Of a stretch of 64,000 bases of DNA, positions 8,179-63,489 are shown in pieces (the first letter of the stretch is position 1; the number at the start of each line of letters is the position of its first letter). A program made the position numbers and the translations under genes. The stretch comes from Candidatus Woesearchaeota archaeon (GTDB taxonomy: Archaea; Nanobdellota; Nanobdellia; Woesearchaeales; ARS49): positions 1,886 to 65,885 of the forward strand of contig JACQMY010000036.1 of the NCBI GenBank assembly GCA_016203305.1, in the 5' to 3' direction. The notes under the pieces were generated by a model. The model did no database searches. It was not told where the DNA came from and saw only the letters and a program-made list of their open reading frames with translations.

Positions 8179-8334
8179 GGACGAGGATAAAGATTGAAGG
8201 TATAAGGTTGTAGGACGAAGGCAGAAGGTTGTGGGTATTAGGGTGAAAGCGGAAGGACGAAGGATGTAGGTATTATGCGATTGGCTATTGGGTATTAGGA
8301 TGTAGGGATTAGGACGGAGGAGGAAGGCACAAAG
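8179..8334 (+). repeat. tandem array of about 22 degenerate heptads (G-N-N-N-W-A-G)
   Basis: ggacgag gataaag attgaag gtataag gttgtag gacgaag gcagaag gttgtgg gtattag ... with strict 7-bp periodicity. Confidence 0.8.
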
Positions 8335-8493: not shown

Positions 8494-9522
8494 ATGGGAT
8501 GGTTATTTGGGAATGGGGTGAAGGGCAGCTGGCTCAACATACGCTTATCGCGAATATCAAATATTAGCGAAGCGCTCAAAAAACAACTACAAAACTATTG
8601 CATAATAGCAGACATAAAAGAACTTTCAAGCGTCAATCTTCTCAAGCTAGAAAAAGACTGGAACGTGCCAAGACAAGAACTCGCCAAACTCTTCCTACAC
8701 GCGACAAAAGAAAAAATATTCACCATGAACTATGTCATGCACTGCGAAAAATGCCCGGCACAAGGAACGCTGCCAAAACTCTCACAATTCAAAAGCAAAA
8801 TGGTATGCACAGGATGCCAAGCATCACTAACCCCAAAACTCGACCAGAGCGTAGAAGTAGCATTCAGCATACACGAAGACCTGGCAAAAAGCCAAAAAGT
8901 CCAACCAGGACACTATATCCCTGCAATAGAAATAGTAAACACAGAAGAATTCAGAACACTATTTGAAGCAGAAAAACCATTGCCAGGAGAACACCTAGTG
9001 ATAAACCAGCTCACCTTCTTCTTCACAGACCTATCAGGAAGCACGGCAACCTACGAAAAACTCGGAGACGGAAAAGCATACGGCATAGTCAAAGAACACT
9101 TTATACTGTTGTTTGAAATAATCAAAAAACACAACGGCGCCATTGTCAAAACAATAGGAGACGCAGTCATGGCAACATTTCTTTCAAGTGCTGATGCAGT
9201 AACAGCAGCACTAGAAGCCAAACAAGCATTTGTAAAATTCAACAAACGCAAAGACATCAAAGGAGCGGCAAACATCAAAATAGGAATACACACAGGCAAC
9301 TGCCTGGCAGTCACGCTAAACCAACGTTTAGACTACTTTGGAAACACAGTAAACAAAGCAGCACGCATACAAGGAGCAGCAGACAAAGACGAAATATGCA
9401 TCAGCAAAGACACACTACAAGAAGCACAAACAAGAGCTTTATTCAAGGACTTAAAACCAAGACCAAAAAGCATACAGCTAAAAGGAATACTTCAGCCGGT
9501 TGATATTCTAAGCATAAGATAG
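8494..9522 (+). CDS. class III adenylate/guanylate cyclase-domain protein with an N-terminal zinc ribbon
   Basis: 'FFFTDLSGSTATYEKLGD...IKTIGDAVMATF' cyclase-homology motifs. 'HCEKCPAQG...CTGCQ' Cys4 ribbon. Confidence 0.7.
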   Translation: MGWLFGNGVKGSWLNIRLSRISNISEALKKQLQNYCIIADIKELSSVNLLKLEKDWNVPRQELAKLFLHATKEKIFTMNYVMHCEKCPAQGTLPKLSQFKSKMVCTGCQASLTPKLDQSVEVAFSIHEDLAKSQKVQPGHYIPAIEIVNTEEFRTLFEAEKPLPGEHLVINQLTFFFTDLSGSTATYEKLGDGKAYGIVKEHFILLFEIIKKHNGAIVKTIGDAVMATFLSSADAVTAALEAKQAFVKFNKRKDIKGAANIKIGIHTGNCLAVTLNQRLDYFGNTVNKAARIQGAADKDEICISKDTLQEAQTRALFKDLKPRPKSIQLKGILQPVDILSIR

Positions 9523-9562
9523 GACGAAGGTTGTAGGTGTTAGGATGAAGGAAGGAGATAGT
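9521..9562 (+). repeat. heptad (GNNNWAG) tract beginning at the cyclase stop codon
   Basis: ta ggacgaag gttgtag gtgttag gatgaag gaaggag. Confidence 0.6.
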
Positions 9563-31165: not shown

Positions 31166-31742
31166 GGGAGATCCTCCTTTTCGTTCTTTGACGCACGACC
31201 TCTTTTTTCGCGTCGGCAACGCTTTTTTGGGGCAATTTTTCCCCTTTCACTCCTCTCGACTCCGCCTGAATCACGATTTCATGCACGTCTGAACTCTCTT
31301 GTTCTGAGAGAATCTTTTGCAAATTCAAGAGTATGACCATACGTTCACCAAGTATGATGACTCCTTGAAGATACTCTGAATGGATTTTCGTTGATAAGAT
31401 CGCAGGCGTCTTCTTGATGGCGTCTTTTTCCGCCCGGAGCACTTCCGAGACCTGTTCAACGATGATGCCAAAAAGATTGTCGCCAGCATTCACGATAAGA
31501 ATGTGCTGCGGTTTGGATTCAGCAGTGACGTGAAATTTCTTTAGAAGATCAATTGCTACTATGATCTTTCCCCGTACATTGATGATTCCCTCGACAAAAA
31601 CAGGAGCGTTTGGAACCTTTGTTATCCTTGTTGCTTTGAGTATTTCCTTGACATCAAGGATCGGCGCAGCATACTCTTCTCCCCCGATAGCAAAAACAAC
31701 GAACTGCAGCTCCTCTTTTGGTTTTTCAAGCTCTGCGTGCAT
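31140..31742 (-). CDS. cheW: chemotaxis coupling protein CheW
   Basis: 'QFVVFAIGGEEYAAPILDVKEI' CheW-domain start. Confidence 0.85.
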   Translation of the reverse strand: MHAELEKPKEELQFVVFAIGGEEYAAPILDVKEILKATRITKVPNAPVFVEGIINVRGKIIVAIDLLKKFHVTAESKPQHILIVNAGDNLFGIIVEQVSEVLRAEKDAIKKTPAILSTKIHSEYLQGVIILGERMVILLNLQKILSEQESSDVHEIVIQAESRGVKGEKLPQKSVADAKKEVVRQRTKRRISHEKKNTYH

Positions 31743-31743
31743 A

Positions 31744-35237: not shown

Positions 35238-35251
35238 AAACAATGCTTGGT

Positions 35252-35283
35252 TTGTAGTGTGTAGTTAGTAGTTACAAACTGCA
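35252..35283 (+). other. hairpin gtttgta-(18 nt)-tacaaac
   Basis: Same GTTTGTAG...CTACAAAC arms as the hairpin at 9626-9660. Confidence 0.5.
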
Positions 35284-43379: not shown

Positions 43380-43385
43380 TAAATC

Positions 43386-43427
43386 AGGATGTAGGTTGTA
43401 GGAAGAAGAGTGGAGGATAATAAGATG
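43386..43427 (+). repeat. heptad (GNNNWAG) tract after the histidine-kinase stop
   Basis: ag gatgtag gttgtag gaagaag agtggag gataata. Confidence 0.5.
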
Positions 43428-43443
43428 GGCCCGAGGAGATTTG
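43427..43443 (+). repeat. 17-bp copy of the tRNA-Ile 3' end (att-like)
   Basis: GGGCCCGAGGAGATTTG is identical to 44641-44657 and 44745-44761. Confidence 0.65.
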
Positions 43444-43582
43444 GGTGTTTACCTTTTTCTTCAATTCTCTGGTAGTTAGATTATCTTGGATTAAGTATTG
43501 GTTGGGTATGTAGGTAGTTAATTTTTGCGCTCATTGTCCAGACCGATACATTTATATATCAGATGGCATATTTATATCTCAT

Positions 43583-44107
43583 ATGATACAAAAATATTCC
43601 AGATATAGAGTTTTGCAACAGTTTTTTGATTTTCCACGCAAAGCATTCTTGATTCGTGAGCTTTCGAGAAATACGAAGCTTTCAGTGCCTTCGGTTCGTC
43701 TCCACATTAAGGCTTTGCGCGCTGAAGGGCTTATCATAAAGGACAACACTGGCCTGTACCCTTCATTTAGAGCAGTGAGGGAAGACTCTTTGTTCAAACT
43801 TCTGAAAGCTCAGAACATGGTTTTAAGGCTCCATCAAACAGGCATTCTGAGCACCATCGAGAAAACTACGTACCCGTCTTGCATTGTGCTATTCGGTAGT
43901 GCTTCCCGAGGCGAAGACGCTGAGGAAAGTGATATTGATTTGTTCATGCAGGCAAAGCGAGTGAACCTTGATTTGAGAAAGTTCGAAAAGGCTTTGAACC
44001 GAAAGGTCAATCTTTTATTCGAACCCGATATGAAAACAATCAGTCCAGAGTTGCTCAATAATCTTGCAAACGGAACGGTAGTGTATGGGTATTTGAAGGT
44101 GATTTGA
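43583..44107 (+). CDS. minimal nucleotidyltransferase (MNT) with an N-terminal wHTH
   Basis: 'LFGSASRGEDAEESDIDLF' GS...DxD motif. Confidence 0.7.
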   Translation: MIQKYSRYRVLQQFFDFPRKAFLIRELSRNTKLSVPSVRLHIKALRAEGLIIKDNTGLYPSFRAVREDSLFKLLKAQNMVLRLHQTGILSTIEKTTYPSCIVLFGSASRGEDAEESDIDLFMQAKRVNLDLRKFEKALNRKVNLLFEPDMKTISPELLNNLANGTVVYGYLKVI

Positions 44108-44539
44108 TTGGAACCATGGACTGAACAATCTGATAAAGTAAGCAAACAACGACCTGACACTGAAAAAGCTCGCGCACTCCTCAAGATGATCGCCCTTCGA
44201 GAACAACGTGCCCAAATAACACCCCTTCCACAGTTTGCCACCTTGTTAGCAGAAGAACTATACGAAATCGTCAAGGAACTCATAACTGGAATAATGAGCG
44301 TTGACGGTTGGAAAACCGCCAGTCATGAACTGCTAATTGGATACCTCGCCAAATTCTATCCTGAATTTAGCACCGCAGAAGTCATGCTCTTGGATCAACT
44401 TCGGGAAATGCGAAACGATATCGCATACCGAGGCGTCATGATAAACCCAGAATATCTAGAGAGAAACCAACAAAATATCTCCAATGCCATTCAAAAACTC
44501 AAACAAATACTAAACGCAAGACTCAACAAAACAAGATAA
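44108..44539 (+). CDS. HEPN-like partner of the MNT
   Basis: Helical 143-aa protein directly abutting the MNT. 'LREMRNDIAYRG' occupies the position of the R-x4-6-H motif, but the His is not conserved. Confidence 0.45.
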   Translation: MEPWTEQSDKVSKQRPDTEKARALLKMIALREQRAQITPLPQFATLLAEELYEIVKELITGIMSVDGWKTASHELLIGYLAKFYPEFSTAEVMLLDQLREMRNDIAYRGVMINPEYLERNQQNISNAIQKLKQILNARLNKTR

Positions 44540-44632
44540 TCACGTTCAAACGTCGGAATTCCACCAGCCTGCTGGCTGGCGAAGTTCAAATCTCCTTGCA
44601 TGATGCGGATTAGCGCGAAGCGAATTAAAAAA

Positions 44633-44738: not shown

Positions 44739-44854
44739 TGGGCCCGAGGAGATTTGAACTCCCGACCACTGGTGGGCTTAGAACGTCCGGGTGTTGTTTT
44801 GTGCCAGACGCGGTCATATAAGACCAGTGCTCTACCAGGCTAAGCTACGGGCCC
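44739..44854 (-). tRNA. tRNA-Ile (anticodon UAU inferred) with a 42-nt intron; CCA encoded (44736-44738)
   Basis: Manual fold: acceptor GGGCCCG/CGGGCCC, D-arm GCTT-AGCCTGGTA-GAGC, anticodon stem CTGGT/ACCAG, loop CTTATA|intron|C, T-arm GGGAG-TTCAAAT-CTCCT, then ACCA. Anticodon depends on the canonical 37/38 intron placement. Confidence 0.6.
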
Positions 44855-44975: not shown

Positions 44976-46046
44976 ATGCGTCACGTCGTCATCGCGCTAG
45001 CCGCATTGGTAATACTCCTCGGACTTGCAACAACCCTTGACAGAATTTCACTAGCACCTGCTGTTGTTGTAGAAACAATCATCCAATGCAACGATGGAAC
45101 GTTCGCACACTCACCAGAAGAATGCCCACTTCCACCAGTTCCAACACCAGTACAATTTGAAAGCACTGCATCAGCAGCAGTACAACCACAAATCACAATG
45201 CAGGAAGACCCGATCGGAAAAACATTCCTAAAAAAAATGCCACAAAATTACGTCTACAACAAAGGAGAACTTCCAATATACGCGTCAGGGCCAAGCAGAA
45301 GCACAGGAGAATGGCCGTTCGTCGCACCAGGAATACTCTACTGGAACGTTGAAGACAATAAAGCACTCTACGTCTACCCAGGAGATATCTCACCAGGATG
45401 GTGGGCAGAATACACAAACCAAACAAAACAGGTGATCACCACTGACCTGGTCGGCGCAAGCCTCTACCCCGCAGCACTAATAAGACTACAACTCACAGGA
45501 AACAAAGACCTTGACGAAAACCTGCTGCCAAAAGAATTCCTCAAATACTTCAACTTCCTCTTCAGAGGCACTTTACGCGAAGACAACATAATAAGAACCA
45601 TCGAACCATTCTACAGCAAAAGCCCAATAGAATGGTTTGCCAACTATGCAAGCGACCAGCCGGTCAAAGTCGATACCAAGGAACGAGTTCTCCCAACCAT
45701 TGGCGGAAGCATAATGAGCAAGCTCTCACTACACTATTCAAGCAAGGAAACGACCCAACGCATTCTACGAACACAAGAAGGAAGCGCCTACGAATACAAA
45801 CCAACCCAGTCAGCAGAAATAGTTTTCCGCTTTGATCCAAGAGGAATACCACTAGTTATCGACGAGCTTGACACAGAAGGAAACCTAATCGAAAGACACA
45901 CTTACACAGTCCAGACAACATACAACAGAGATGGCGTGATGAACACCCCAGTGGATCCAAGAATCGTAAACCTACCACCACACCTAATTGTAACAGTCCA
46001 AGACTGGGAAAAATGGACAAACAGCAAAGAAAACATAATGAGATGA
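44976..46046 (+). CDS. hypothetical secreted or membrane-anchored protein
   Basis: Start set at the internal Met (MRHVVIALAALVILLGL, signal/TM). The longer ORF from 44856 would overlap the tRNA. Confidence 0.45.
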   Translation: MRHVVIALAALVILLGLATTLDRISLAPAVVVETIIQCNDGTFAHSPEECPLPPVPTPVQFESTASAAVQPQITMQEDPIGKTFLKKMPQNYVYNKGELPIYASGPSRSTGEWPFVAPGILYWNVEDNKALYVYPGDISPGWWAEYTNQTKQVITTDLVGASLYPAALIRLQLTGNKDLDENLLPKEFLKYFNFLFRGTLREDNIIRTIEPFYSKSPIEWFANYASDQPVKVDTKERVLPTIGGSIMSKLSLHYSSKETTQRILRTQEGSAYEYKPTQSAEIVFRFDPRGIPLVIDELDTEGNLIERHTYTVQTTYNRDGVMNTPVDPRIVNLPPHLIVTVQDWEKWTNSKENIMR

Positions 46047-46999
46047 ACATGGACGCCCCTGAAAGTACACTAGAAGAACATAATCCAGAACAAGAAGCCA
46101 AAAACCTGCCAGAAGAACAGGCAACGCCTTCAGCCGGCCAACAGCGCAAGAAAAAACAGCCTGCGCAAAAACCAACCAATAAAAACTCAAACGAGCAAAT
46201 GGATTTCTCAAAACTCAAAGAAAAACTCCAACAAACCCAAAGCGCGCCTACCATCGCCATATCAGGCAAAACGCACGTAGGCACAGGAATCGACGGCATA
46301 GACCAACTGTTTGCCAAAGGAATCCCCCGCGGAAGCACAACACTGGTTGTCGGAGGACCAGGAAGCGGCAAAACAATCTTCTGCCTGCAAACCCTATACG
46401 AAGCAGCAAAAGCAGGAGAGAAAGTCCTCTACATGACACTAGAAGAAGACACTGAAAGACTAAGACAACACATGAAAGACTTCGGATGGGATATAACGCC
46501 ACTAGAAAAAAGAGGCTTCTTTGTAATAAAAAAATTCAACCCAATGGACATCACAAGACAAATGGACGCAATGCTTGAACAAGTAAGAGGAGAACTCCTC
46601 ATCGACCTAAAGCCGCTCTTAATCCCAAAAGATTTTGAACCAGACAGAGTGGCGCTCGACAGCCTGTCAGCAGTCGCGGCAGCACTATTTGAAAAAGAAG
46701 AAAGCTACCGCTTATACCTGGAACAACTATTCAAACTCTTCAACGACATTGGAAGCACAGCATTTTTGATATCAGAAACCCCAGACCCGACGCAAAAACT
46801 AAGCGCCACAGGAACAGAAGAATTCCTCGCAGACGGAGTATTCATCTTCTACAACGTGAGAACAGGGAACTCAAGAGAAAGCGCATTCGAAATCCTCAAA
46901 ATGAGAGGAGCAAGCTTCAAGAAACAAATAGTGGCAATGCAAATCAAAGAAAACGGCATAGTCGTCTATCCAGAACAAGAAGTGTTTACGACGATATAG
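46013..46999 (+). CDS. KaiC-like RecA-superfamily ATPase with a low-complexity N-terminal extension
   Basis: 'GIDGIDQLFAKGIPRGSTTLVVGGPGSGKTIFCLQ' Walker A. 'VALDSLSAV' Walker B region. Confidence 0.75.
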   Translation: MDKQQRKHNEMNMDAPESTLEEHNPEQEAKNLPEEQATPSAGQQRKKKQPAQKPTNKNSNEQMDFSKLKEKLQQTQSAPTIAISGKTHVGTGIDGIDQLFAKGIPRGSTTLVVGGPGSGKTIFCLQTLYEAAKAGEKVLYMTLEEDTERLRQHMKDFGWDITPLEKRGFFVIKKFNPMDITRQMDAMLEQVRGELLIDLKPLLIPKDFEPDRVALDSLSAVAAALFEKEESYRLYLEQLFKLFNDIGSTAFLISETPDPTQKLSATGTEEFLADGVFIFYNVRTGNSRESAFEILKMRGASFKKQIVAMQIKENGIVVYPEQEVFTTI

Positions 47000-47084
47000 G
47001 ACGAAGGCGGAAGGTATTAGGCGTTAGGTTGTAGGAGTTAGGACGAAGGAAGAAGCACGTAGGTATCAGGATGAAGGGCGAAGA
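46999..47084 (+). repeat. heptad (GNNNWAG) array, 12 units
   Basis: ta ggacgaag gcggaag gtattag gcgttag gttgtag gagttag gacgaag gaagaag cacgtag gtatcag gatgaag ggcgaag. Confidence 0.8.
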
Positions 47085-47085
47085 T

Positions 47086-47127
47086 AGACGTTCTTCGTCC
47101 TTCCACCTTATACCTTCATCCTCGTGC
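47086..47127 (-). repeat. heptad array in inverted orientation, 3' flank of the minus-strand gene
   Basis: Reverse complement reads g gatgaag gtataag gtggaag gacgaag. With 46999-47084 it forms a convergent pair between two convergent genes. Confidence 0.7.
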
Positions 47128-47134
47128 AAGTACT

Positions 47135-48055
47135 TCACCCCTTTCTAAACCGGTTCAGCAACGCATACCTCCGATACTTCTGAACACCAGACTTCCAAGC
47201 AGCAAGCTCTGCCTTAACTTTCCGTCCACGCTCACGCAACTGCTCCATACGCTGCCGATATGAAAACCTGCCCATCTTACCAGCAAAATACTCCTCCTGA
47301 ACATGTTGCAAAGTCTTATTCGTTGCATCAATCACCCTTGAAGCCTCACGCTCCTTCTGCAAAGCAAACATCACGCGAAACTCAAGCCAGCCCCAAACTC
47401 CCAAAATAGCCAGGATTGCCAGAACCACAATCACACCGATCGTATGCCTCTTGACAAACTCTGTTATGTTCTTCTTTGCAATATAAGCAAACGTGCGTTC
47501 ACGAACGGCAGCAGACTCTGCCTCTGCCAAATGCATCCTAGTGGCATGCACCAAGACAAAAACTTCATCGTACCGTTCTGACTCAAAAGCATCACGCGCC
47601 TTTTCAAACGTCCGGTCAACCAAAGACATATTTACCGAAACATTCACCTGAACCAACAACGCACCCAAATCCTCCAACGCATCACGAGCGTCAAAAGCAG
47701 AAACCTTTTTCTCAGCAATCCATCGCCCAAGCTCAACCACTCTGGTTAAATTCTGACCGGGCCTCAACCCAGCACTCCGCGCTTGTGCAATCATCCTGAA
47801 ATACTCCTCAGCAAGAGGCTTTCCCTCCACTGATTCGTTCAAGTGGACAGCAGTCTGCAACAACGCGAACTCATCACGGCCAACCAAAGAGTCGTTCATT
47901 CTCAATAACGTATCTTCCAAAGAAGCATATGGAAGACCTGCCTTTTTAACCTGAGCAACATCAACAGTAGCGTTCAAAAACACCTCTTTTGCCTGCTCAA
48001 CAGAAACTGCACAAGCCAAAGAAGACAAAACAATTAACAAAAGCAACCACTTCAT
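47135..48055 (-). CDS. signal-peptide protein with a C-terminal TM helix and basic coiled coil; paralog of the giant protein's C-terminal anchor
   Basis: Signal 'MKWLLLLIVLSSLACA'. TM 'IGVIVVLAILAILGVWGWL' followed by a 'QEEYF'-type coiled coil, mirroring the C-terminus of the 4872-aa protein ('WWALALLAALALYGAL...EAQEAYF'). 4-nt overlap with it. Confidence 0.6.
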   Translation of the reverse strand: MKWLLLLIVLSSLACAVSVEQAKEVFLNATVDVAQVKKAGLPYASLEDTLLRMNDSLVGRDEFALLQTAVHLNESVEGKPLAEEYFRMIAQARSAGLRPGQNLTRVVELGRWIAEKKVSAFDARDALEDLGALLVQVNVSVNMSLVDRTFEKARDAFESERYDEVFVLVHATRMHLAEAESAAVRERTFAYIAKKNITEFVKRHTIGVIVVLAILAILGVWGWLEFRVMFALQKEREASRVIDATNKTLQHVQEEYFAGKMGRFSYRQRMEQLRERGRKVKAELAAWKSGVQKYRRYALLNRFRKG

Positions 48056-51000
48056 TTTCCCACCTCTTTCCTCAACTCTGCAATATGCGCGTCCAGCTCA
48101 GTTACCAAACTCTTGAACACCTGCATTCGAAGCTCATATCTCCTCCTGGAAATAACGTGATGAGCAAAATATGCCAATTGAGCCTCGCGCAAGCCACGCA
48201 TTGCCTCCTGGCGTTCTGCGATGGCCACCTTCAAAGCCTGATCCTTTCGGTACAAACGAGAACGCAACAAGCGCAGCCCAACCATGTCGCCAGTAATTCT
48301 TTCCAAACGCAACTGCAACTGGCCACTTGCACGCTCGAACTCCCTGCCACCAAGCTCGCGCCTGACAAAATAAGCCTCCTGAGCCTCACGCAACAACCGC
48401 TGCGCCTCAACACGCTCGCGCAACAACGCATCCAACCTGTACTTTATGAACGCAAGACGCGCAAGAAGCACTGCTTTAAGAGCGCCATACAAGGCAAGCG
48501 CTGCCAGCAACGCCAAAGCCCACCAGTACCTGCGCGCAACACTCTGCCACGTCCAAGCACGCTCTACAACTCTCAACTGCACGGCGAGCGCTTCATCTGC
48601 CAACGAGATCGCACGATCAAAGTCCTCACGCTCGAATGCCTTAACAGCAAGAGAAAGCAACTTCTCAACAGCAAGAACGTCAAGCCCTTCGTCCTCTGCC
48701 TTGTTTATCTCTGTCCTTACCTTATCCAACAAAGCGCCTGCTTCCAACTCGCGCTCCAACAACAAACGCAACTTCTCAACAACATACGCAGACTCCTTGT
48801 AATCACGTTGAACAAGAGCGTTCCTTAACATTCCGCGCAACACATCAGCCCGAGTAACAGGATAATCCTTTGCCACAACTATTGCATACAAGCTCTCCAC
48901 ATCAGTATAAGCACGCTCAACCTCATCCGATGTAACTTCTCGAATAATCAAACGGACCCGTTTGTACTCAACAACAGTCTTCCTAATCTTGGTTGAAAAC
49001 GGCAAACCATTCCTGAACTCAACACCCTCTGCTTCCAACAGAGAAGTCATTATGAAGGTTATGTTTACTTCTGATTGCTGCTCATAAGCAGGAGCGGCAA
49101 GCTCGATATCGAAAATCCTACTCTGCCCATACGGAATGTTCTCCAATGCTTGCGGGGACCAGTGAATGTATCTTGAGAGGTAGCCGTCAACAGTTAAATC
49201 AACACGTTTCATCAAGGAATTATTGTAAACGTTCGTAACAATCAACGGAAATACTATTCTTGTACCACGCTTAACCTCGATAGTCTCATTTGTCACTAAG
49301 GCAGCTCGCTCAAAAAATGTCTTCTGGAACGTGCCGGGATCTATCCCTCCACCGCCACCGCCCGCACCTCCTGCGCCACCAGCACCACCACCGCTGCCTG
49401 AGCCGCCACCTCCTACAACAAATCCAGGACCGGCAACAACCAATACTTGAGCCGTTGTACCAAGCGTCAAGTTCTGAGAAGAAAGCAGGACGCCAGAATC
49501 ATTAAACCCGTCAGCTGCAGTGCTAACATCCCTGAACCCAAGAACTGCGCCTGATGGAATCTGCACAATAATCGGCAACTCCTCACTAGCATTCGGTTCG
49601 ATCGTTCCAAAGAACGTTGACAAACCACCACCAGTTAGCACCCAATCAACAGGCAAGGTTATATTCAAAGTCACATTAGACGCATTCTTCGTGCCTCTGT
49701 TAGTTACCCTTGCAATAATCGAAATTCCTGACTGGCCACGCTGCACTTGAGACGGAATTACTGAAAAGTCGGCAAACAAGAATGCATCATCCACAGTTGT
49801 AATTGTGAAACTTGTGTTCAACTGCGCAGGAGACGCGTTCAGCGAGCTGCCAACAGTGGTCGCGTTGATAGTGATATTATTAGAGAATACACCAACAGTC
49901 CCAGGAGCAGTCGCGTTAACACCCACCATTCTGACCCCGCCAGGAGAAAGAGTAAAGTTAGTCTCGCTGAAGAAGGTGGCATTAAGAGTAGAGTTCAACA
50001 CAAACGATAAGTTCACATCCCCTGTATTATTAATAGTTATATTGCCCATCGAGATATTGACCCCCATCGGACTTGAGAACACACCCAAATTGGCAGGAGA
50101 ACGCGTCCACGTAGCCTCGAATGAAACATTAAACACTACAATTCCAGACGTGCCATTATTTCCTGCGGTGTCATTCCCAGTCATAAACACGATATAACTC
50201 CCCTCGACTGCAAGGAACGAAGCATTAAACTCACCAGTCAAGACATTGAACGACATCGACACATTTGCAAAAGAAGAACCGTTCACCACTATATGCAACA
50301 CCACAGAGTTCAAGTCAACAGCGGTGAAATTATCAGTAATGTTCGCAGTGAAATTAATCAACACTCCTGGATCCAGCGCGTCAACCGTACTCGGAGAGAA
50401 TAACAAACTCAAGAAGTCAGGAGGAGTACGGTCAACAGCAAATACCCTCGTTTCAGACGTGCTTGTATCAGCCGAAGTATCAGTACATGCAACCGCCCAA
50501 GTATAGTTGCCCTCTGACAGGCCTGAGACAGTAAAGTTTACCACTGAGTTATTCAGAACCGAAGAATTTGTCTGATTAACTGAACCATTCAACAACAATG
50601 AACAATTCAAAGTTGCAGACTCCGCGTCAGTCACGTTGGCAAAAAACAACACTGTCAAGTTTGTCGTGTTCGTCCCATTAGCAGGAGCAATGGAAACAAC
50701 AACAGGGGAGAGACCTGAAATAACCGTTGTCGACTCCGTAGCATTCACCTGCACAAACTCGCCTGACACGCTTACCGCTGACACGTTCACAGAGTTATTC
50801 AAAACAGTGCCGTTTGCAATACCATTGCTAACGTTCACCAAAATAGACAAGTTCACAGACGCGCCAGGAGAAAGATTGCCTAGCGAGAACGTACTATTGC
50901 CCGAAGCAGGGGCAGGAGAAGAACTCACAAACAACACGCCAGACGGATAGGTTTCATTCACCGTCACGTTATATGCAATCTCGCCGTCCAGATTCTGCAC

Positions 51001-60000: not shown

Positions 60001-62670
60001 ACAGTTTATCATGCTCGAATGCGACCATGACGAGCTATTGTAACTGCATACCCGGGCATCATTATCAGCACCAGGCAAACCAGGTATATACCCGAATAAT
60101 CCATTGTTACTCTGGCTTTCGAACGCACAATCCAAACTCACCGCGCCCGCACCATTTGCCTCAATCGCAGCATCCTCGGCAGGAGGAACAGGAGAAGTCT
60201 CAACAGCACTGCCATTCCACATCCTGAAGTTGCCATCACCCGTAGTATCCTGGCTCACGAAACCAATACGATCAGATTTTTTATCGCCACAAAGACGCAT
60301 CCCATTCGGAGCACCGCTGTCCAAAGTGAAGAACACCTGATCAGCACTCCAAGACTTTGCAGAATAGTTAAACGTCCTGAACGCATAAGTCGTTGTAGAG
60401 TTTGCGTACACTACCAAGCCATCCTTGCTTGAACCCTCCCAAATAAAGTCAAACAATTGCTCGGCAATATCGTTAACGCTACCAGTAATGTTCATCTGAG
60501 TAGCATTATCAAACCCTGTACCGTTCCACATCACAGCAAAAATGTCAAGGTTCGCATCCTCCAATAAAACCATGACATCATCACTACCATTGCGGCCCAC
60601 AGTCTTAACCCAATGAACAGCAGCAGTAACATTCGTATTCAAAGCAAACTCAGAACTCCAACCAGTGCCATTATACAACCTATACTTAACCTGTCCATTC
60701 GCAACAATTGAATCTTCATAAACAATTAAGGCGTCTCCTGATATTTGCTCGAAATCAAGATCAAACCCTCTGCGCCCAGTATTCGGGTTGTCAAACGCCA
60801 ACGCCTGAAAGTCAGACCAGTTAGACTCGTACACCTGAACAGACGTGTTTGTATTAATGTCAAGAGTCCCCATCACAAACTTGTCAAACCTAGGTCCCGG
60901 ACGCAAAACCAGCCATTCAATATCCGCACCAACCGAGTTCGCATCAGTTTGTTCCTGCATAAATGACTGGTTTGACAAATTCCAGAACCGGTAACGCGGA
61001 GCAGGAACTGAAGCTTCAGCATAAGCAGCCAAGCCATCAGAACCAGCAGCAGTAACTGCAGCATCATGAATGAAGTCAAACTCAATAAATCCAGACAGTG
61101 CGTTCTCTGCAAACGTATTAGCATTACAATCAGGCTCTGTTGCATCACAATTATCATTCGTAATATTGCGCACAAGCTTGACCACTTTGAGGTCGAAAAC
61201 ATCTGTGCCAAATGGAACACCACCTAGTTTCACATATTGAACTTCAGCAATACCAGCAATACCAGAACGGCCAACTATCACAGAAGTATTCGCCACGTAA
61301 ATTTCAACATAGCTAACTGTTCCATTATCCCTTGCCAAAAAGTCGATCACGCTGCCATTCGTCAAGTTACGCTCGAAAGTTACTCTAACTTTATGGCCTG
61401 CTGGAATCGGCTCAGACCACACACCATCAATAGCGTTCACCTGTGAGAAGACATCGCTCACGAACGAACCGTTCTTGTCAAGATGAATGGCAGCAGTAGC
61501 ATTAATCTCGCCAAAGCCAGGGTCTTCCGGAGTAAGCTCAAACGAATACTCTCTACCCGGAATCAACCCAGACTTGAAAACAGACCAGCTACCAGCGCAA
61601 GATCTTGAATCAAAGTCCCACTGCTTACACTTCAACAAAGCAGTACCCTGAGCAACAACAGTAACAGTGGCTGTTGAGAAGTTCACCCCAACAGGATCAA
61701 TCGCGTACATCTGCACGAACCTGCCGGACTCAGGAGTATCATCAACACGCAAAACCTCACTTCCAGAAAGGTTAACATCCTCGAACTCAATCGAACTTAC
61801 AGGACCTGAATCCAAGTCAACCAAGACGTCAACACTTCTTGGAACCTCAACAGCAGAGCTTGTTCCCACACCCATTGCCTTCTGCGCCAATAACCTGCCA
61901 GTGCCACGCTCAAGGAATTTCACACTGCCCGAAACACCCCTGCCAGAAGCATCACGCACAACAAACACTGCAGAGACATTGGCTAATGCATTGACCTGTG
62001 CAGACCCATTCAAAACCAATTCTACAGACTCATTAACCAGGATCGAGTCGTTAATCGCCACCAGCTCTCCGCGCAATGAATTGTTCACAGTATTGTTAAC
62101 AGGCGGCTCAACTGGTACAACAGGCGAAGCGTTCTGCAACTGGTCAACCATTGCATCCAATGCATCCTCAACATACGGGGCAACAGCAGGAACATCCACA
62201 GTTTCGACAACCTCGACAGTAGGCGGTAGGTTGTAGATAGTAGGTAGTAGGTAGTAGGTGGTTGGCGGAACTGAATAGTTTGTAGTGGGCAGCGTGTAGT
62301 TTGTGGTTTGTGGCACGTCATCTGGTTGTTCAGACTCATTGACCGCATCAAGCGGTTCAACAGAATAGTTTGTAACAGGCACTGCATCAGAATCGTTCAA
62401 TAGCCCGACAGGCTGTTCAACTATGCCTGTGTTTTCTGTCGTGAATTCCACAACTAACTCTGACAAATTGTCTGGAGTTTGCACGACTTCCAAGACACGG
62501 CCAGGCACGTCAGGAACTGAAGCGTTCGACAAAGCAGAACCTAGCACGCTCAGTGCGTCGTCTACAAGAGGAGCAGAAGCTGGAACGTCAACAGTCTCTA
62601 TCACAGTCACGTTCTCTGCAGCAGCAGAAAGAACAAGTGCAAGTACCAACAAGAGAGTGAAGCGTTTCAT
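48052..62670 (-). CDS. giant (4872 aa) secreted surface protein with about 30 DUF11-type repeat domains, Gly-rich linker and C-terminal TM/coiled-coil anchor
   Basis: Signal peptide 'MKRFTLLLVLALVLSAAA'. Recurring '(K/S)SDSPDPV..G..L.Y.I.V.N.G' DUF11/TIGR01451-type repeats, N-glycosylation-sequon rich. 'GGGGSGSGGGAGGAGGAGGGGGG' linker. Uninterrupted 14.6-kb ORF. Confidence 0.85.
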   Translation of the reverse strand: MKRFTLLLVLALVLSAAAENVTVIETVDVPASAPLVDDALSVLGSALSNASVPDVPGRVLEVVQTPDNLSELVVEFTTENTGIVEQPVGLLNDSDAVPVTNYSVEPLDAVNESEQPDDVPQTTNYTLPTTNYSVPPTTYYLLPTIYNLPPTVEVVETVDVPAVAPYVEDALDAMVDQLQNASPVVPVEPPVNNTVNNSLRGELVAINDSILVNESVELVLNGSAQVNALANVSAVFVVRDASGRGVSGSVKFLERGTGRLLAQKAMGVGTSSAVEVPRSVDVLVDLDSGPVSSIEFEDVNLSGSEVLRVDDTPESGRFVQMYAIDPVGVNFSTATVTVVAQGTALLKCKQWDFDSRSCAGSWSVFKSGLIPGREYSFELTPEDPGFGEINATAAIHLDKNGSFVSDVFSQVNAIDGVWSEPIPAGHKVRVTFERNLTNGSVIDFLARDNGTVSYVEIYVANTSVIVGRSGIAGIAEVQYVKLGGVPFGTDVFDLKVVKLVRNITNDNCDATEPDCNANTFAENALSGFIEFDFIHDAAVTAAGSDGLAAYAEASVPAPRYRFWNLSNQSFMQEQTDANSVGADIEWLVLRPGPRFDKFVMGTLDINTNTSVQVYESNWSDFQALAFDNPNTGRRGFDLDFEQISGDALIVYEDSIVANGQVKYRLYNGTGWSSEFALNTNVTAAVHWVKTVGRNGSDDVMVLLEDANLDIFAVMWNGTGFDNATQMNITGSVNDIAEQLFDFIWEGSSKDGLVVYANSTTTYAFRTFNYSAKSWSADQVFFTLDSGAPNGMRLCGDKKSDRIGFVSQDTTGDGNFRMWNGSAVETSPVPPAEDAAIEANGAGAVSLDCAFESQSNNGLFGYIPGLPGADNDARVCSYNSSSWSHSSMINCPLTGSLIGGGNSVETLEFYPHPVTNEIMMLGFSFVENLASARWNGSNWTNVSTIETALDCLNGQTQCAMFAWGSFDPAPSILVVSPANGSIFTTNGTVNFTVNATDNINISRVNVSVTLPNGSIVSFNLTLVSGTTTSGLYELNFTNTTQNGQYNFTVFALDSSGASSSVSGSFTISGALFTNVTVAKSDSPDPVVRGQTLRYQINVSNAGTIVAENVTVRETYPTNVVFNGSQPAPSSGNNTFTIGNLSAGRSFLVNITVNVSASNGSLLNNTAVVNYSNSTGNQSVNTSILTTVLGFPVVFADKADTPDPVLNGSTLRYQITVFNTGDEIAYNVTVVDGYPANVIFNGSQPSPASGNGTFSLGNLLPGQSTTINITVNVSAALANGSVLNNSFNATFANISGVNTTVPNSTITTVQGAALVFTSKSDSPDPVPKGTTLRYQIVVNNVGTEIAYNVTVVDGYPANVIFNGSQPSPSSGNGTFSLGNLLPGVSTTVNITVNVSAGLTNNSVLNNSYNVTFASLAGQNSTVSNSTLTTVLGSPVVVSVKSDSPDPVVKGQQLNYSILINNTGDDTAFNVTLVETYPAGVVFHSSGPVPISGNGTFSLGNLSPNASTTVNITVNVSNGLSNGTVLTNTVNATFANSSGQNGSASDSELTTVLGFPVVFASKSDSPDPVPKGTTLRYQITVVNLGDEFAYNVSVVDGYPVSVVFNGSQPVPTSGNNTFSLGNLSPGQSTTVNITVNVSSALTNSTVLNNSFNATFANLSGVNTTVTNSTTTAVLGSPVIVNIKSDSPDPVVKGQQLNYSILINNTGDDTAFNVTVVETYPAGVVFHNSSPVASSGNGTFLLGNISNGSSTTINITVNVSNGLANGTVLTNVVNATFANSSGQNSSVVDSELTTVLGFPVVFASKSDSPDPVLNGSVLSYQITVINLGDEFAYNVTVVDSYPSNVVFNGSQPSPSSGNNTFSLGNLSAGQSATVNITVNVSGALANGSVLNNSFNATFANVSGVNTTVTNSTTTNVQGTPIVITIKNDNPDPVIKGQQLNYSIFVNNTGGEIAYNVTVVESYPSGVVFHSSTPAPSSGNNTFGFSTLLPGQSTTINITVNVSNGLTNGSVLNNSVSATFANASGQNVTVSDSELTTVLGFAQVSVNKSDSPDPVVRGATLRYQIVVNNTGDEIAYNITVFEDYPVSVVFNGSQPVPSSGNNTFLLGNLTNGTFTTINITLNIGRGLANGTVINNTVNVTFANLSGVNFTQNASQNTTVIADTIQPLVFDVRPFEGTAFAPGIVIEISANVTDNIAVDNVTANITFPNGTTFLVNLTRVPGTDKYNGSFITPNLNGQYNITFRANDTEGNINNTVVTSFNVGLDTIVPQIRFVGPTPADNTFTGNTFVPVNISVDEANMSVALIELNGSRVNFTTPLRSEANGTDITFVASLTSQSHVITIADNASRANLTATFSVISGTLNVLVNGNNVGTIGTSDVSPKTFENASNFLLIGSNTIEYAPVIAVTATIDQSNITYTPLNMSFFNNFTGLADGVYQYFGSVSDIGSNSNQTGNRTITIDTLRPAAEFVSPTDANGSTIARRNILVNLTGTDVNFANTTIRLFNSTGGEINSSNTSSSPNFVNFTGLADGLYFFNATVFDLAGNINNTETRQVVVKVNPPNVSVLSPVAGGSFLLNDTINITANVTDWLGVGTVMVQITYPDGTLQNFSTNVTGSLYNLSFSNLTQRGNYTIRIFANDTLNNVNNSFTLTFIRQSLNVIDIVNRTGGFVNYTLSVTSNVSGMLNLSANISGSRVKSISMLLHNSSSILSILRIDDPFSESQTPNGSFVEYAIDPTGINFTNASVVVTAIGDYLLYTCKNYNFSGQECLGNWSEIMNISPGQNYTITITPNDPGFLETSSAVDVAIAPVNNTAFVIAFVDNNESDVSFRIMNTNGTVIVNTTDVDTSADNVSRVDVALVNSTHFLISWVDGPSDDLTQGLFLINGTNTTSPTVVRAGIGLNTDVKLASIVNQSVTCYANDGNADASFLTFFNNGTQSVGELAVDGNMAPAAPNENLVGCAGANSTRWAYFWFDDLSNDATFSIQSETGALLTGQVDIDADVGETGQVAMTSLGNSSLVNNSFFMAFYDSVDQNVYIAGRTSDNVVLFAPASIDGNAGVISRISAGTVKMNETSSEDVAVVAWWDENAGAIKAATFNASGSNISNEITVESQPNSTFRLLDVAGRVSVTNNSICPGRFVVAYTNSSGQGVFKGFFTDGSSWDGTCDLVTPLVFDLRPVVNSTFNIGETIELAANVTDDGVIDTVLANVTLPNGTIQQVVLVIVPGTSKYNASFFIPLTGLYNVTIIANDTSGRVNSSEVTNFTALFVTPSISTSKTDSPDPVVKGQQLNYSILINNTGNSTAFNVTVVESYPSGVLFHSSSPVASSGNGTFSVGNLSPNMSTTVNITVNVSLGLVNGTVLNNSYNVTFANASGQNATVTNSTLTSVLGAPVVVTIKTDSPDPVVKGQQLNYSILINNTGDDTAFNLTFLDSYPSGVVFHNSSPVPTVGNNTFSLGNLSPNASTTVNITVNVSNGLANGTLLNNTANASFQNTFGLNQSASDTEQTTVVGFPVVFTSKSDAPDPVARGEQLQYSIVVSNLGDEIAYNVTVVENYPENVTFHNSSPAPSVGNNTFSLGNLSPGQSATVNITLNVSAAAANGSVLNNSYNVTFANVSGVNTTVRNSTTTTVLGAATISVVKVDSPDPVIKGQQVNYSILVNNTGDDVAFNVTLTETYPSGVVFHNSSPVPTVGNNTFSLGNLSPNASTTVNITVNVSNGLANGTLLSNFVNVSFQNTSGGNRSSSDTEVTTVTGFAVVFTSKSDSPDPVPVNSTLRYQIMVNNVGDDIAYNVTVVEGYPVNVTFNGSQPLPSSGNGTFSVGNILPGGSTTINITVNVSFAAFNGSLLNNSYNVSFANATGQNFTVTNSTTTTIAGIVALAVSKSDSVDPVLQGSQLNYTITVQNLDGEIAYNVTVNETYPSGVLFVSSSPAPASGNSTFSLGNLSPGASVNLSILVNVSNGIANGTVLNNSVNVSAVSVSGEFVQVNATESTTVISGLSPVVVSIAPANGTNTTNLTVLFFANVTDAESATLNCSLLLNGSVNQTNSSVLNNSVVNFTVSGLSEGNYTWAVACTDTSADTSTSETRVFAVDRTPPDFLSLLFSPSTVDALDPGVLINFTANITDNFTAVDLNSVVLHIVVNGSSFANVSMSFNVLTGEFNASFLAVEGSYIVFMTGNDTAGNNGTSGIVVFNVSFEATWTRSPANLGVFSSPMGVNISMGNITINNTGDVNLSFVLNSTLNATFFSETNFTLSPGGVRMVGVNATAPGTVGVFSNNITINATTVGSSLNASPAQLNTSFTITTVDDAFLFADFSVIPSQVQRGQSGISIIARVTNRGTKNASNVTLNITLPVDWVLTGGGLSTFFGTIEPNASEELPIIVQIPSGAVLGFRDVSTAADGFNDSGVLLSSQNLTLGTTAQVLVVAGPGFVVGGGGSGSGGGAGGAGGAGGGGGGIDPGTFQKTFFERAALVTNETIEVKRGTRIVFPLIVTNVYNNSLMKRVDLTVDGYLSRYIHWSPQALENIPYGQSRIFDIELAAPAYEQQSEVNITFIMTSLLEAEGVEFRNGLPFSTKIRKTVVEYKRVRLIIREVTSDEVERAYTDVESLYAIVVAKDYPVTRADVLRGMLRNALVQRDYKESAYVVEKLRLLLERELEAGALLDKVRTEINKAEDEGLDVLAVEKLLSLAVKAFEREDFDRAISLADEALAVQLRVVERAWTWQSVARRYWWALALLAALALYGALKAVLLARLAFIKYRLDALLRERVEAQRLLREAQEAYFVRRELGGREFERASGQLQLRLERITGDMVGLRLLRSRLYRKDQALKVAIAERQEAMRGLREAQLAYFAHHVISRRRYELRMQVFKSLVTELDAHIAELRKEVGK

Positions 62671-63099: not shown

Positions 63100-63203
63100 G
63101 CCGCGGTAGTATAGTCCGGTCAAGTATTCGGCCCTTTCGAGGCAGCCAGCAAGTGCTGGTCCAAAGCTAGGCTGAGACACGGGTTCAAATCCCGTCCGCG
63201 GCA
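63100..63203 (+). tRNA. tRNA-Glu (anticodon UUC) with an intron of about 29 nt
   Basis: Manual fold: acceptor GCCGCGG/CCGCGGC, anticodon stem CGGCC/GGCTG, loop CTTTCG|intron with ccagca-ag-tgctgg hairpin|A, T-arm ACGGG-TTCAAAT-CCCGT. T-run follows. Confidence 0.65.
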
Positions 63204-63485: not shown

Positions 63486-63489
63486 TTTC

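What the first reader, a model, noticed from the sequence alone, without database searches (positions are those of the whole stretch)
46999..47127. Convergent inverted pair of heptad arrays between two convergent genes
Twelve plus-strand heptads directly follow the KaiC-like stop. Four minus-strand heptads directly follow the stop of the convergent 306-aa gene. Between them lies a short palindrome (gaaga-tagacgt-tcttc).

The two arrays are partially complementary. They could form a long imperfect stem serving as a bidirectional terminator.
Basis: seen in the sequence. Interest (0 to 1): 0.55.

Follow-up and report, generated by a model that had tools for sequence, protein, structure and literature searches.

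The report
Opposed AGG-phased heptad arrays, archaeal spacer
The spacer between two tail-to-tail genes of a Woesearchaeote consists of two opposed runs of a 7-base unit (NNKWAGG) that are absent from its closest relatives; they resemble the unexplained intergenic heptamer repeats of bacteria, and the hairpin they can form is a by-product of their orientation, with no sign of a canonical terminator.

Summary
46994-47084 (+) carries 13 units of NNKWAGG. The first unit overlaps the TAG stop of the KaiC-like gene. 47092-47126 (-) carries 5 more units. The two arrays meet in the palindrome GAAGA-TAGACGT-TCTTC.

The pair belongs to a family. The 64-kb window has five intergenic arrays and one in-frame coding copy. 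Period 7 is specific: 9 AGG runs against 0.2 in shuffles.

The family is young. In three relative lineages the same two genes overlap by 8-14 nt, and about 52 kb of distinct relative sequence contains no such array.

A stable hairpin is predicted on both strands (z -3.0 and -2.3). However, random pairs of arrays built from the same units fold equally well. No T5 tract lies within 337 nt (- strand) or 707 nt (+ strand). The other arrays have no inverted partner. The stem is therefore a by-product, and nothing marks it as a canonical terminator.

The closest known relatives are the intergenic heptamer repeats of Xanthomonas, Nostoc and Beggiatoaceae, which also occur as convergent pairs near gene ends and whose function is unknown. 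My scans found the same architecture in many bacteria and phages.

Best reading: slippage-type repeat expansions with a constrained AGG anchor. Rival readings are an RNA platform for a HutP/TRAP-like protein, a selected 3'-end hairpin, DNA-binding heptads, and a palindromic insertion.

The parts
46013..46999 (+). KaiC-like ATPase gene. The ORF is 328 aa, but a public gene call of the identical protein is 318 aa, which would start at 46043. The stop is TAG at 46997-46999.
   Evidence: Pfam PF06745 KaiC, E 2.7e-54. P0002 is 100% identical and 318 aa long.
46994..47084 (+). Array A4: 13 heptads NNKWAGG on the sense strand of the KaiC-like gene. The first unit, ATATAGG, contains the stop codon.
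   Evidence: The 12 nt ATAGGACGAAGG that include the stop are identical to the start of array A2.
47073..47103 (.). Near-perfect 31-nt palindrome at the junction of the two arrays: GAAGGGCGAAGA / tagacgt / TCTTCGTCCTTC. It gives a 12-bp stem with one G-U pair and a 7-nt loop.
   Evidence: Folds. Both apical units end in AGA instead of AGG.
47092..47126 (-). Array A5: 5 heptads (CACGAGG ATGAAGG TATAAGG TGGAAGG ACGAAGA) on the sense strand of the 306-aa gene. It begins 9 nt after that gene's TGA stop.
47135..48055 (-). Convergent 306-aa gene with no Pfam match. It is the ortholog of the 305-334-aa gene that overlaps the KaiC-like gene tail-to-tail in relatives.
   Evidence: BLASTP gives 41% identity over the full length to L240:11010-12014.
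8180..8334 (+). Array A1: about 22 heptads in two registers (8180-8284 and 8286-8334). It fills the space between a palindromic TATA-like box (TTTATAAA, 8165-8172, next to the ScpA start) and the tRNA-Val promoter region. The G-strand points away from scpA.
   Evidence: tRNA-Val at 8367-8439. ScpA Pfam match. The RNA fold is unstructured, z +0.44.
9517..9558 (+). Array A2: 5-6 heptads starting at the TAG stop (9520-9522) of the adenylate-cyclase-domain gene. It is followed by three small hairpins.
   Evidence: The spacer to the next gene is 212 nt here and about 31 nt in relative L240.
43382..43416 (+). Array A3: 4-5 heptads starting 3 nt after the TAA stop of a histidine-kinase gene.
62218..62259 (+). 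Heptad array (TAGTAGG-like, 6 units) inside the giant 4872-aa ORF, antisense to it. (CCTACTA)x3 is read in frame as PTTYYLL.

Best explanation
The 135-nt spacer is two abutting, oppositely oriented members of a genome-specific family of AGG-phased heptad arrays (unit NNKWAGG, a mosaic of a few preferred heptads).

What is shown:
- The arrays are a family restricted to period 7.
- They fill intergenic spacers, with the G-rich strand reading away from the adjacent gene.
- They start at or next to stop codons.
- They are missing from the closest relatives, where these two genes overlap.
- The predicted hairpin is what any two opposed arrays of this family would give.

What is inferred:
- The arrays arose and grow by replication slippage in 7-nt steps, as proposed for the over-represented heptamer simple-sequence repeats of bacteria.
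- The invariant AGG/CCT at the end of each unit is the anchor that lets unlike units re-pair one unit out of register. Units that lose it stop propagating. This would keep AGG conserved without a cellular function.
- The palindromic centre arose by a snap-back or template-switch copy.

The likely consequence for the cell is incidental. The two formerly overlapping genes are uncoupled. Each mRNA that reads through gets a C-poor, unstructured purine-rich tail followed by a shared imperfect hairpin of roughly 30 bp. That hairpin may slow read-through or 3' exonucleases, but it is not a canonical terminator.
For: - Family and period: (9 observed against 0.2 expected, at period 7 only).
- Unit logo NNKWAGG with C at 6% of positions.
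- Restricted unit vocabulary: 27 identical unit pairs against 10.2 expected, P = 0.0006.
- No block copying between arrays: P = 0.25.
- Lineage-specific: synteny is kept in L240-L244, but the convergent genes overlap by 8-14 nt. No AGG array occurs in these loci, which total about 93 kb held but only about 52 kb distinct, because L242-L244 are near-identical copies. The 306-aa gene is orthologous to its C-terminus. The spacer at array A2 is 212 nt against about 31 nt.
- A slippage-type signature inside a gene: (CCTACTA)3 kept in frame as PTTYYLL.
- The stem is a by-product.
- The same architecture is widespread. Heptad arrays turned up in many bacteria, metagenome contigs and phages. Convergent partners outnumber divergent ones 37 to 6. 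Arrays lie mostly just downstream of a gene with the G-strand as the sense strand, 87 against 26 (crude ORF calls).
- AGG is not special at large: the KWGAG control gave 64 loci against 59.
- Literature: heptamer repeats are over-represented, 89-93% intergenic, on average 28 nt from the upstream ORF, 70 of 186 sit in convergent pairs, a polymerase-slippage hypothesis has been proposed, and the function is unknown (PMC4692102).
- Short-read assemblies of the same strain break inside the array at 47032 and 47080 in two runs. This is compatible with length heterogeneity.
Against: - Neutral decay of a perfect repeat would erode all seven positions equally. Here positions 5-7 are 88-94% conserved and positions 1-2 are nearly random. 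The 'AGG anchor' explanation for this is my inference and is untested.
- The arrays are absent from relatives with 80% KaiC identity, yet they are already highly mosaic. That is odd for young slippage products, which are near-perfect in most bacterial examples.
- All four gene-proximal downstream arrays are on the sense strand, and two share the 12 nt ATAGGACGAAGG including the stop codon. This hints at an RNA-level or insertion-site constraint.
- Slippage and length polymorphism were not observed directly. The contig breaks are only suggestive.
- Only 64 kb of this genome could be examined.
Confidence: 0.45

Rival explanations
1. RNA platform for an oligomeric RNA-binding protein. The arrays are 3'-UTR tracts (A1 possibly a free-standing decoy RNA) that present an XAG(G) motif every 7 nt on C-poor, unstructured RNA. 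A ring-shaped or multimeric protein reads them the way HutP reads three XAG motifs at a 7-nt period on each face, or the way TRAP reads 11 (G/U)AG triplets. Binding would set mRNA stability or translation of signalling genes.
For: - 46 of 51 units carry A/T/G/C-AG at fixed 7-nt phasing, and A and G are the conserved bases.
- HutP contacts at U498, U505 and U512, and at U7, U14 and U21, show a 7-nt period with specific recognition of A and G only (PMC2425495).
- The arrays are unstructured as RNA: A1 MFE -14.2 kcal/mol for 146 nt, z +0.44.
- Sense-strand orientation in 4 of 4 downstream arrays, starting at the stop codon.
- Constraint on AGG that neutral decay does not explain.
Against: - No HutP, TRAP or other candidate was found among about 38 window proteins scanned against Pfam. 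Only 64 kb of the genome was available.
- A1 lies between two divergent promoter-like boxes and may not be transcribed (inference).
- One array sits antisense inside a coding region.
- The arrays are absent from close relatives, so a binding protein would also have to be lineage-specific.
- Unit numbers range from 5 to 22 with no preferred count.
- Known HutP and TRAP sites sit in 5' leaders that overlap terminators, not after stop codons.
Confidence: 0.2
2. Selected bidirectional 3'-end hairpin. The opposed arrays are kept because the stem stops or pauses RNA polymerase from either side, or blocks 3'-to-5' exonucleases. This would protect both convergent mRNAs and prevent antisense read-through.
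For: - Stable fold on both strands.
- Position exactly between convergent stops.
- Other gene 3' flanks in this window also carry hairpins (TCGGAAWT...AWTTCCGA and GTTTGTAG...CTACAAAC), while T5 tracts are rare after genes. Hairpins may therefore mark 3' ends in this organism.
- Convergent pairs strongly outnumber divergent ones in bacteria.
Against: - The stem is no better than chance for two such arrays.
- There is no T tract.
- Archaeal termination is not known to use hairpins (own knowledge).
- The left arm has 8 unpaired extra units.
- Relatives manage with overlapping genes and no spacer.
- The other arrays of the family lack a partner.
Confidence: 0.12
3. DNA-level binding array. Contiguous 7-bp units in direct and inverted orientation are bound cooperatively by a small DNA-binding protein, so the arrays act as operators, insulators or centromere-like sites. 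Models are the ribbon-helix-helix omega repressor on WATCACW heptads (own knowledge) and ToxT/H-NS on the TTTTGAT heptads of the ctxAB promoter.
For: - Exact 7-bp phasing with a short conserved core and variable spacer.
- Direct plus inverted arrangement at 46994-47126.
- The largest array, A1, occupies a divergent promoter region next to scpA.
- Heptad repeats recruiting regulators at a promoter are documented (abstract of bioRxiv 10.1101/2021.05.14.444153, seen).
Against: - Four of five intergenic arrays lie at gene 3' ends, not at promoters.
- Orientation tracks the neighbouring gene in 5 of 5 cases, which a symmetric DNA-binding role does not require.
- Only 3-5 of 7 positions are conserved.
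- No cognate protein was identified.
- The arrays are absent from relatives.
Confidence: 0.1
4. Insertion of a small palindromic mobile element (MITE- or REP-like) whose arms are heptad arrays, with duplication of the 14-nt overlap of the two genes as a target-site duplication.
For: - In relatives a single 14-nt segment (TCACCCAGATTTAA in L240) serves both gene ends. In the window, two diverged copies (TTACGACGATATAG and TCACCCCTTTCTAA) flank the 135-nt insert.
- A near-perfect central palindrome is present.
- A2 and A4 begin with the same 12 nt.
Against: - The arms are very unequal: 13 units against 5.
- No second copy of the whole element exists in the window.
- The arrays share no blocks beyond what the unit vocabulary predicts (P = 0.25).
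- No transposase or RAYT-like gene was seen.
- A1-A3 are not palindromic.
Confidence: 0.08

Closest known systems
G-rich heptameric simple-sequence repeats of Xanthomonas (GGGAATC) and Nostoc (GGGGAYT), Rehm et al. 2015 (PMC4692102); earlier, the tandemly repeated heptanucleotides of Calothrix cited there
   Same: - 7-nt tandem units.
- Strongly intergenic.
- Close to the end of the upstream ORF, with the G-rich strand as the coding strand downstream of an ORF, or as the non-coding strand upstream of one.
- Many occur as two short arrays in convergent orientation that can form a stem-loop.
- Length and sequence vary between close relatives.
- Function unknown.
   Different: - Here the host is a DPANN archaeon.
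- The units are a mosaic of different heptads with only (K)(W)AGG conserved, not near-perfect copies.
- There are no G3-4 tracts, so a canonical G-quadruplex is not available.
- The arrays abut or overlap stop codons.
TAACTGA heptamer direct repeats of Beggiatoaceae, cyanobacteria and Bacteroidetes (MacGregor 2015, PMC4679880), and the heptamer repeats near Nostoc promoters and start codons (bioRxiv 10.1101/2022.06.06.494920)
   Same: - Abundant intergenic heptamer arrays dispersed over a genome.
- Patchy phylogenetic distribution.
- Suspected but unproven binding by a post-transcriptional regulator.
   Different: - Those arrays lie mostly just upstream of start codons, whereas these lie after stop codons.
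- Those are almost all direct repeats of one exact unit.
HutP and TRAP recognition sites (XAG triplets at fixed spacing on unstructured RNA; PMC2425495)
   Same: - An XAG core with A and G conserved.
- A 7-nt period identical to the HutP sites.
- C-poor, unstructured RNA.
   Different: - 5-22 units instead of 3+3 (HutP) or 11 (TRAP).
- Location after stop codons rather than in a 5' leader overlapping a terminator.
- An extra conserved G (AGG).
- No cognate protein found.
- This is an analogy of mechanism only.
REP/BIME extragenic palindromes of enterobacteria (own knowledge)
   Same: - Dispersed short repeats that accumulate after stop codons and between convergent genes.
- Often found in inverted pairs that form hairpins in mRNA 3' ends.
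   Different: - REP units are 20-40-nt imperfect palindromes mobilised by RAYT transposases.
- Here the unit is a non-palindromic heptad in tandem, and no such transposase was seen.
Intrinsic terminators (bacterial hairpin plus U tract; archaeal oligo-T)
   Same: A stable stem between convergent genes.
   Different: - No U/T tract after the stem, and none within several hundred nt.
- The stem is imperfect, 30 bp or more, and rich in A-U and G-U pairs.

Membership tests
Intergenic heptameric SSR arrays (as in Xanthomonas, Nostoc, Beggiatoaceae) | Tandem units with a 7-nt period, above chance | tested here: met
   9 runs against 0.2 expected. Periods 5, 6, 8 and 9 are at chance level.
Intergenic heptameric SSR arrays (as in Xanthomonas, Nostoc, Beggiatoaceae) | Intergenic, close to the neighbouring ORF, with the G-rich strand reading away from it | tested here: met
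   5 of 5 intergenic arrays. The same tendency appears in 239 bacterial and metagenome loci and in PMC4692102.
Intergenic heptameric SSR arrays (as in Xanthomonas, Nostoc, Beggiatoaceae) | Occurrence as convergent inverted pairs | tested here: met
   46994-47084 (+) and 47092-47126 (-). Convergent 37 against divergent 6 in fetched loci. 70 of 186 in Xcc.
Intergenic heptameric SSR arrays (as in Xanthomonas, Nostoc, Beggiatoaceae) | Near-identical copies of one unit (a true microsatellite); G3-4 tracts able to form a G-quadruplex | tested here: not met
   The 13 units of A4 have 12 different sequences. Only AGG is conserved and G runs are 2 long. TRF detects only 2.2 copies of a 14-mer.
Intergenic heptameric SSR arrays (as in Xanthomonas, Nostoc, Beggiatoaceae) | Unit-number variation between strains (slippage) | tested here: inconclusive
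   Two independent short-read assemblies of the same strain break at 47032 and 47080. No reads were available.
Bacterial-type intrinsic terminator | G+C-rich hairpin immediately followed by a T/U run | tested here: not met
   No terminator-like site in 46700-47400 on either strand.
Archaeal intrinsic terminator | Oligo-T tract (T5 or longer) shortly after the stop codon | tested here: not met
   The first T5 is 707 nt (+) and 337 nt (-) downstream.
HutP/TRAP-type XAG-repeat RNA site | XAG motifs at fixed spacing (4-nt spacers for HutP) on single-stranded RNA | tested here: met
   Unit logo. Unstructured fold of A1. Spacing compared with PMC2425495.
HutP/TRAP-type XAG-repeat RNA site | A cognate oligomeric RNA-binding protein encoded in the genome | tested here: inconclusive
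   None among about 38 window proteins scanned against Pfam. The rest of the genome was not available.
HutP/TRAP-type XAG-repeat RNA site | Site overlaps a terminator/antiterminator in a 5' leader | tested here: not met
   The arrays follow stop codons or lie between divergent promoters.
Omega/RHH-type heptad operator | Contiguous 7-bp units in direct and inverted orientation at promoters, with a cognate RHH protein | tested here: inconclusive
   The phasing and the direct-plus-inverted arrangement are met. Only A1 lies at promoters. No RHH gene was identified in the window.
Known RNA families (Rfam 15) | Match at or near a family's gathering score | tested here: not met
   Only generic hairpin matches to miRNA precursor models at 17-22 bits, against gathering scores of 65-100. 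Nothing but the tRNA in 8100-9750.

The most novel reading that the evidence does not exclude
The AGG-phased heptads are a cis-acting code. They would be read on RNA by a lineage-specific ring-shaped or filament-forming protein in the manner of HutP or TRAP, one XAG(G) per 7 nt. They would mark the 3' ends of signalling genes, with the 22-unit array at 8180-8334 acting as a decoy. This would be a post-transcriptional regulon of a kind not described in archaea. It might also hint at what the long-unexplained heptamer repeats of bacteria and phages do.
Probability: 0.15. Interest if true: 0.75.

Novelty: new variant of a known kind. Interest (0 to 1): 0.4.

Why it matters
Intergenic heptamer repeats have been noted in cyanobacteria, Xanthomonas and other bacteria for decades, and no function has been established. 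The papers read here, up to 2022, still call their role unknown.

This locus adds three things:
- An archaeal (DPANN) example.
- A datable origin. Relatives have overlapping genes and no spacer, so the arrays are recent.
- A mosaic form in which only AGG and the 7-nt phase are kept. This separates what is constrained from what is free.

My scans also show the convergent G-array/C-array architecture in many bacterial phyla and in phage contigs. The question is therefore general.

If the arrays are only slippage products, they illustrate how overlapping convergent genes become uncoupled and how spacers grow. If the AGG phase is read by a protein, they would define a new regulatory code.

Tried and rejected
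1. Scans of public collections for relatives of the arrays. None came from a relative of this organism (tblastn). The genome-wide or clade-wide distribution in Woesearchaeota could therefore not be measured.

2. The idea that AGG-type heptads are special across life. Rejected: a KWGAG x10 control gives as many viral loci (64) as KWAGG x10 (59).

3. The idea that the arms were selected to pair. Rejected by the unit-permutation and unit-resampling nulls.

4. The idea that arrays spread by copying multi-unit blocks, prompted by a 24/26 match between A5 and A1 (pair I2). Rejected: the best 4-unit match is no better than for shuffled unit order, P = 0.25.

5. Translation of the array by stop-codon read-through. 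Rejected by eye: TAG and TGA recur in all frames.

6. Shine-Dalgarno decoy. The genes here use GAGGTG-like sites, and the heptads rarely contain AGGTG. Not pursued further.

7. Exact-protein look-up with the 328-aa ORF failed, because the public gene call is 318 aa.

8. Known RNA families: none.

9. Canonical terminators: none.

10. HutP, TRAP or RHH candidates in the window: none found.
Full report
**1. The observation**

The window is a contig of a Candidatus Woesearchaeota archaeon. The source name comes from the only database hit of the 306-aa protein. Intron-containing tRNA genes fit an archaeon.

Directly after the TAG stop of a KaiC-like ATPase gene (Pfam PF06745), the + strand reads 13 in-register heptads, 46994-47084. 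The first, ATATAGG, contains the stop codon.

On the - strand, 9 nt after the TGA stop of the convergent 306-aa gene, there are five more: CACGAGG ATGAAGG TATAAGG TGGAAGG ACGAAGA, 47126-47092.

The two arrays meet at GAAGA-TAGACGT-TCTTC (47080-47096).

The periodicity is far beyond chance. No shuffle reproduces such arrays. It is specific to period 7: 9 AGG runs against 0.2 expected, while periods 5, 6, 8 and 9 are at background.

**2. It is one of a family**

The same scan finds arrays at four other places:
- 8180-8334, about 22 units, between the scpA start and the tRNA-Val promoter region.
- 9517-9558, beginning at the TAG stop of an adenylate-cyclase-domain gene.
- 43382-43416, 3 nt after the TAA stop of a histidine-kinase gene.
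- 62218-62259, inside the giant 4872-aa ORF.

The 51 intergenic units give the logo NNKWAGG. Positions 5-7 are 88-94% conserved, positions 1-2 are almost random, and C makes up only 6% of all positions.

The units are not independent draws from that logo. A few heptads recur: ACGAAGG x5, TTGTAGG x4, TATTAGG, ATGTAGG and ATGAAGG x3 each. This gives 27 identical pairs against 10.2 expected, P = 0.0006. Their order looks random, and the arrays share no multi-unit blocks beyond expectation (P = 0.25).

Arrays A2 and A4 start with the same 12 nt, ATAGGACGAAGG, including the stop codon.

In all five intergenic arrays the G-rich strand reads away from the adjacent gene. It is the sense strand downstream of four genes and the non-coding strand upstream of scpA.

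The copy inside the giant gene is antisense. Three perfect CCTACTA units are read in frame as PTTYYLL.

**3. It is recent**

Homologs of the KaiC-like protein led to syntenic loci at three distances:
- L240, 80% identity.
- L241, 69% identity.
- L242-L244, 67% identity, which are near-identical copies of one locus.

Each has the order [~365 aa][KaiC-like]> <[305-334 aa][giant gene]. In all of them the two convergent genes overlap by 8-14 nt. The window's 306-aa protein aligns to the L240 protein right to the C-terminus (41% identity). The 135-nt spacer is therefore an insertion in this lineage.

The 14 nt shared by both genes in L240 (TCACCCAGATTTAA) appear in the window as two diverged copies flanking the insert.

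At array A2 the spacer is 212 nt, against about 31 nt in L240.

None of these relatives' loci contains an AGG heptad array. They total about 93 kb held, but only about 52 kb is distinct sequence, and they contain no comparable period-7 repeat.

Two independent short-read assemblies of the same strain both break at 47032 and 47080, inside the array. This is compatible with length heterogeneity in the population but does not prove it.

**4. The hairpin**

RNA from either strand folds into a long imperfect hairpin. The + strand gives -49.2 kcal/mol, z -2.98. The - strand gives -41.1 kcal/mol, z -2.31. The apical stem is 12 bp, and the DNA core has z -5.1.

The right null model, however, is not a shuffled sequence but two opposed arrays of the same family. 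Permuting the units within each arm gives an equal or better fold in 67% of trials. Drawing units from the other arrays does so in 38%. Complementarity is thus automatic, because every unit ends in AGG and the vocabulary is small.

The evidence speaks against a dedicated terminator:
- No T run follows the stem.
- No T5 occurs within 707 nt (+) or 337 nt (-).
- The other arrays have no inverted partner and, as RNA, are unstructured (A1, z +0.44) or ordinary.
- The relatives need no spacer at all.

One detail suggests that the centre is an inverted duplication rather than a chance meeting of two arrays. Both apical units end in AGA rather than AGG, and the central 31 nt are a near-perfect palindrome.

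**5. Elsewhere**

Pattern scans of species-representative genomes, metagenomes and viral contigs all saturated. They returned heptad arrays from Cyanobacteria, Bacteroidota, Planctomycetota, Acidobacteriota, Verrucomicrobiota and phages, mostly near-perfect microsatellites.

Many are followed after 10-40 nt by an inverted array of the same unit. Among 257 arrays, 37 had a convergent partner and 6 a divergent one.

With crude ORF calls, unpaired arrays lie mostly just downstream of a gene with the G-strand as sense (87), rather than antisense (26). When upstream of a gene, they lie more often on the non-coding strand (31 against 19). That analysis has a known bias, because G-strand units carry stop codons.

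Some phage-like contigs (L307, L259) carry mosaic arrays in nearly every intergenic region.

A control pattern shows that AGG is not special at large: KWGAG x10 gave 64 loci, KWAGG x10 gave 59. No fetched locus comes from a relative of this organism.

**6. What is known**

Rehm et al. (PMC4692102) described GGGAATC and GGGGAYT heptamer repeats in Xanthomonas and Nostoc:
- 89-93% are intergenic.
- They lie on average 28 nt from the upstream ORF.
- 70 of 186 sit in convergent pairs.
- They vary between close relatives.
- The function is unknown.
- The authors cite the hypothesis that polymerase slippage favours 7-nt units.

MacGregor (PMC4679880) described TAACTGA repeats and proposed an RNA-binding regulator. 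A 2022 preprint still treats heptamer repeats as unexplained.

The present arrays match this kind in period, placement, orientation and pairing. They differ in host (archaeon), in being mosaics with only AGG conserved, and in lacking G3-4 tracts.

A mechanistic analogy comes from HutP. It binds XAG motifs at exactly a 7-nt period and recognises only the A and G (PMC2425495). No such protein was found in the window, and the site context differs.

**7. Verdict**

The feature is real. The stem is real but is a by-product, and the terminator reading is not supported.

My best explanation (0.45) is a lineage-specific burst of slippage-type heptad expansions at gene boundaries. In this view the AGG/CCT end of each unit is the mis-pairing anchor, which is an inference. 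The incidental effects are that two overlapping genes are uncoupled and both mRNAs gain a shared 3' hairpin.

The main unexplained fact is the strong constraint on AGG and on phase in arrays that are young yet mosaic. This keeps the rivals alive:
- RNA-protein platform, 0.2.
- Selected 3'-end hairpin, 0.12.
- DNA-binding array, 0.1.
- Palindromic insertion, 0.08.

I rate it a new variant of a known but unexplained kind, of moderate interest.

Noticed in passing
window 43427-43444 and 44739-44854: An intron-containing tRNA gene lies on the - strand (Rfam 58 bits). Its last 18 nt (CAAATCTCCTCGGGCCCA) recur 1.3 kb away. The two copies bracket a nucleotidyltransferase/HTH gene (43583-44107) and a 143-aa partner (44108-44539). 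This looks like a small element integrated at the tRNA 3' end.
   Followed up: partly
window 63100-63203, 63354-63383, 63467-63496: A second intron-containing tRNA. Its 3' end (ATCCCGTCCGCGGCAC) is repeated twice within 400 nt downstream (repeat finder family D19). These may be nested attachment-site remnants.
   Followed up: no
window 4137-4157 and 5383-5404: ORF 4379-5380 (333 aa, no Pfam match) is flanked by GCGCAAAACG+GCTGTGGGACA on the left and TGTCCCACAGC+CGCGCAAAACG on the right. The 11-12-nt core is inverted and the 10-mer is in direct orientation. This may be a small mobile or recombination cassette.
   Followed up: no
window 9573-9621, 12467-12533, 44553-44575; 9628-9659, 35250-35281: Two other hairpin types recur in gene 3' flanks: TCGGAAWT...AWTTCCGA and GTTTGTAG...CTACAAAC. 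T5 tracts are rare after genes in this window, so hairpins may be the usual 3'-flank feature here. The TCGGAAWT motif count alone is not above chance (7 against 5.1).
   Followed up: partly
window 26464-33681: A chemotaxis gene set: methyl-accepting protein 31744-33681, CheA-like kinase 27532-29097 and CheD 26464-26973. The window also holds many sensor kinases, PAS proteins and an adenylate cyclase. This is a rich signalling repertoire for a DPANN archaeon.
   Followed up: no
window 48052-62670: A giant 4872-aa secreted protein with at least 10 tandem 363-nt (121-aa) domain repeats. Orthologs in relatives (2588 to over 2841 aa) carry CLIPPER/NPCBM_assoc hits. The gene order giant gene, ~306-aa gene, convergent KaiC-like pair is conserved.
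   Followed up: partly
L245-L248 (Logan contigs of SRR12113383 and SRR12113384): Independent assemblies of the same strain stop at exactly 47032 and 47080 in both runs, leaving 47 nt of the array unassembled.
   Followed up: partly
L307 and L259 (IMG/VR contigs): Phage-like contigs in which nearly every intergenic region carries mosaic heptad arrays (NNTTAGG or NNTAAGG). The arrays often form a G-array followed by a C-array, placed next to terminator-like hairpins or just upstream of Shine-Dalgarno sites.
   Followed up: partly
window 8139-8172: A perfectly palindromic TATA-like box, TTTATAAA (8165-8172), lies 24-31 nt from an ATG at 8141-8139 on the - strand. This suggests a leaderless scpA mRNA starting 5 codons inside the listed GTG ORF.
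   Followed up: no
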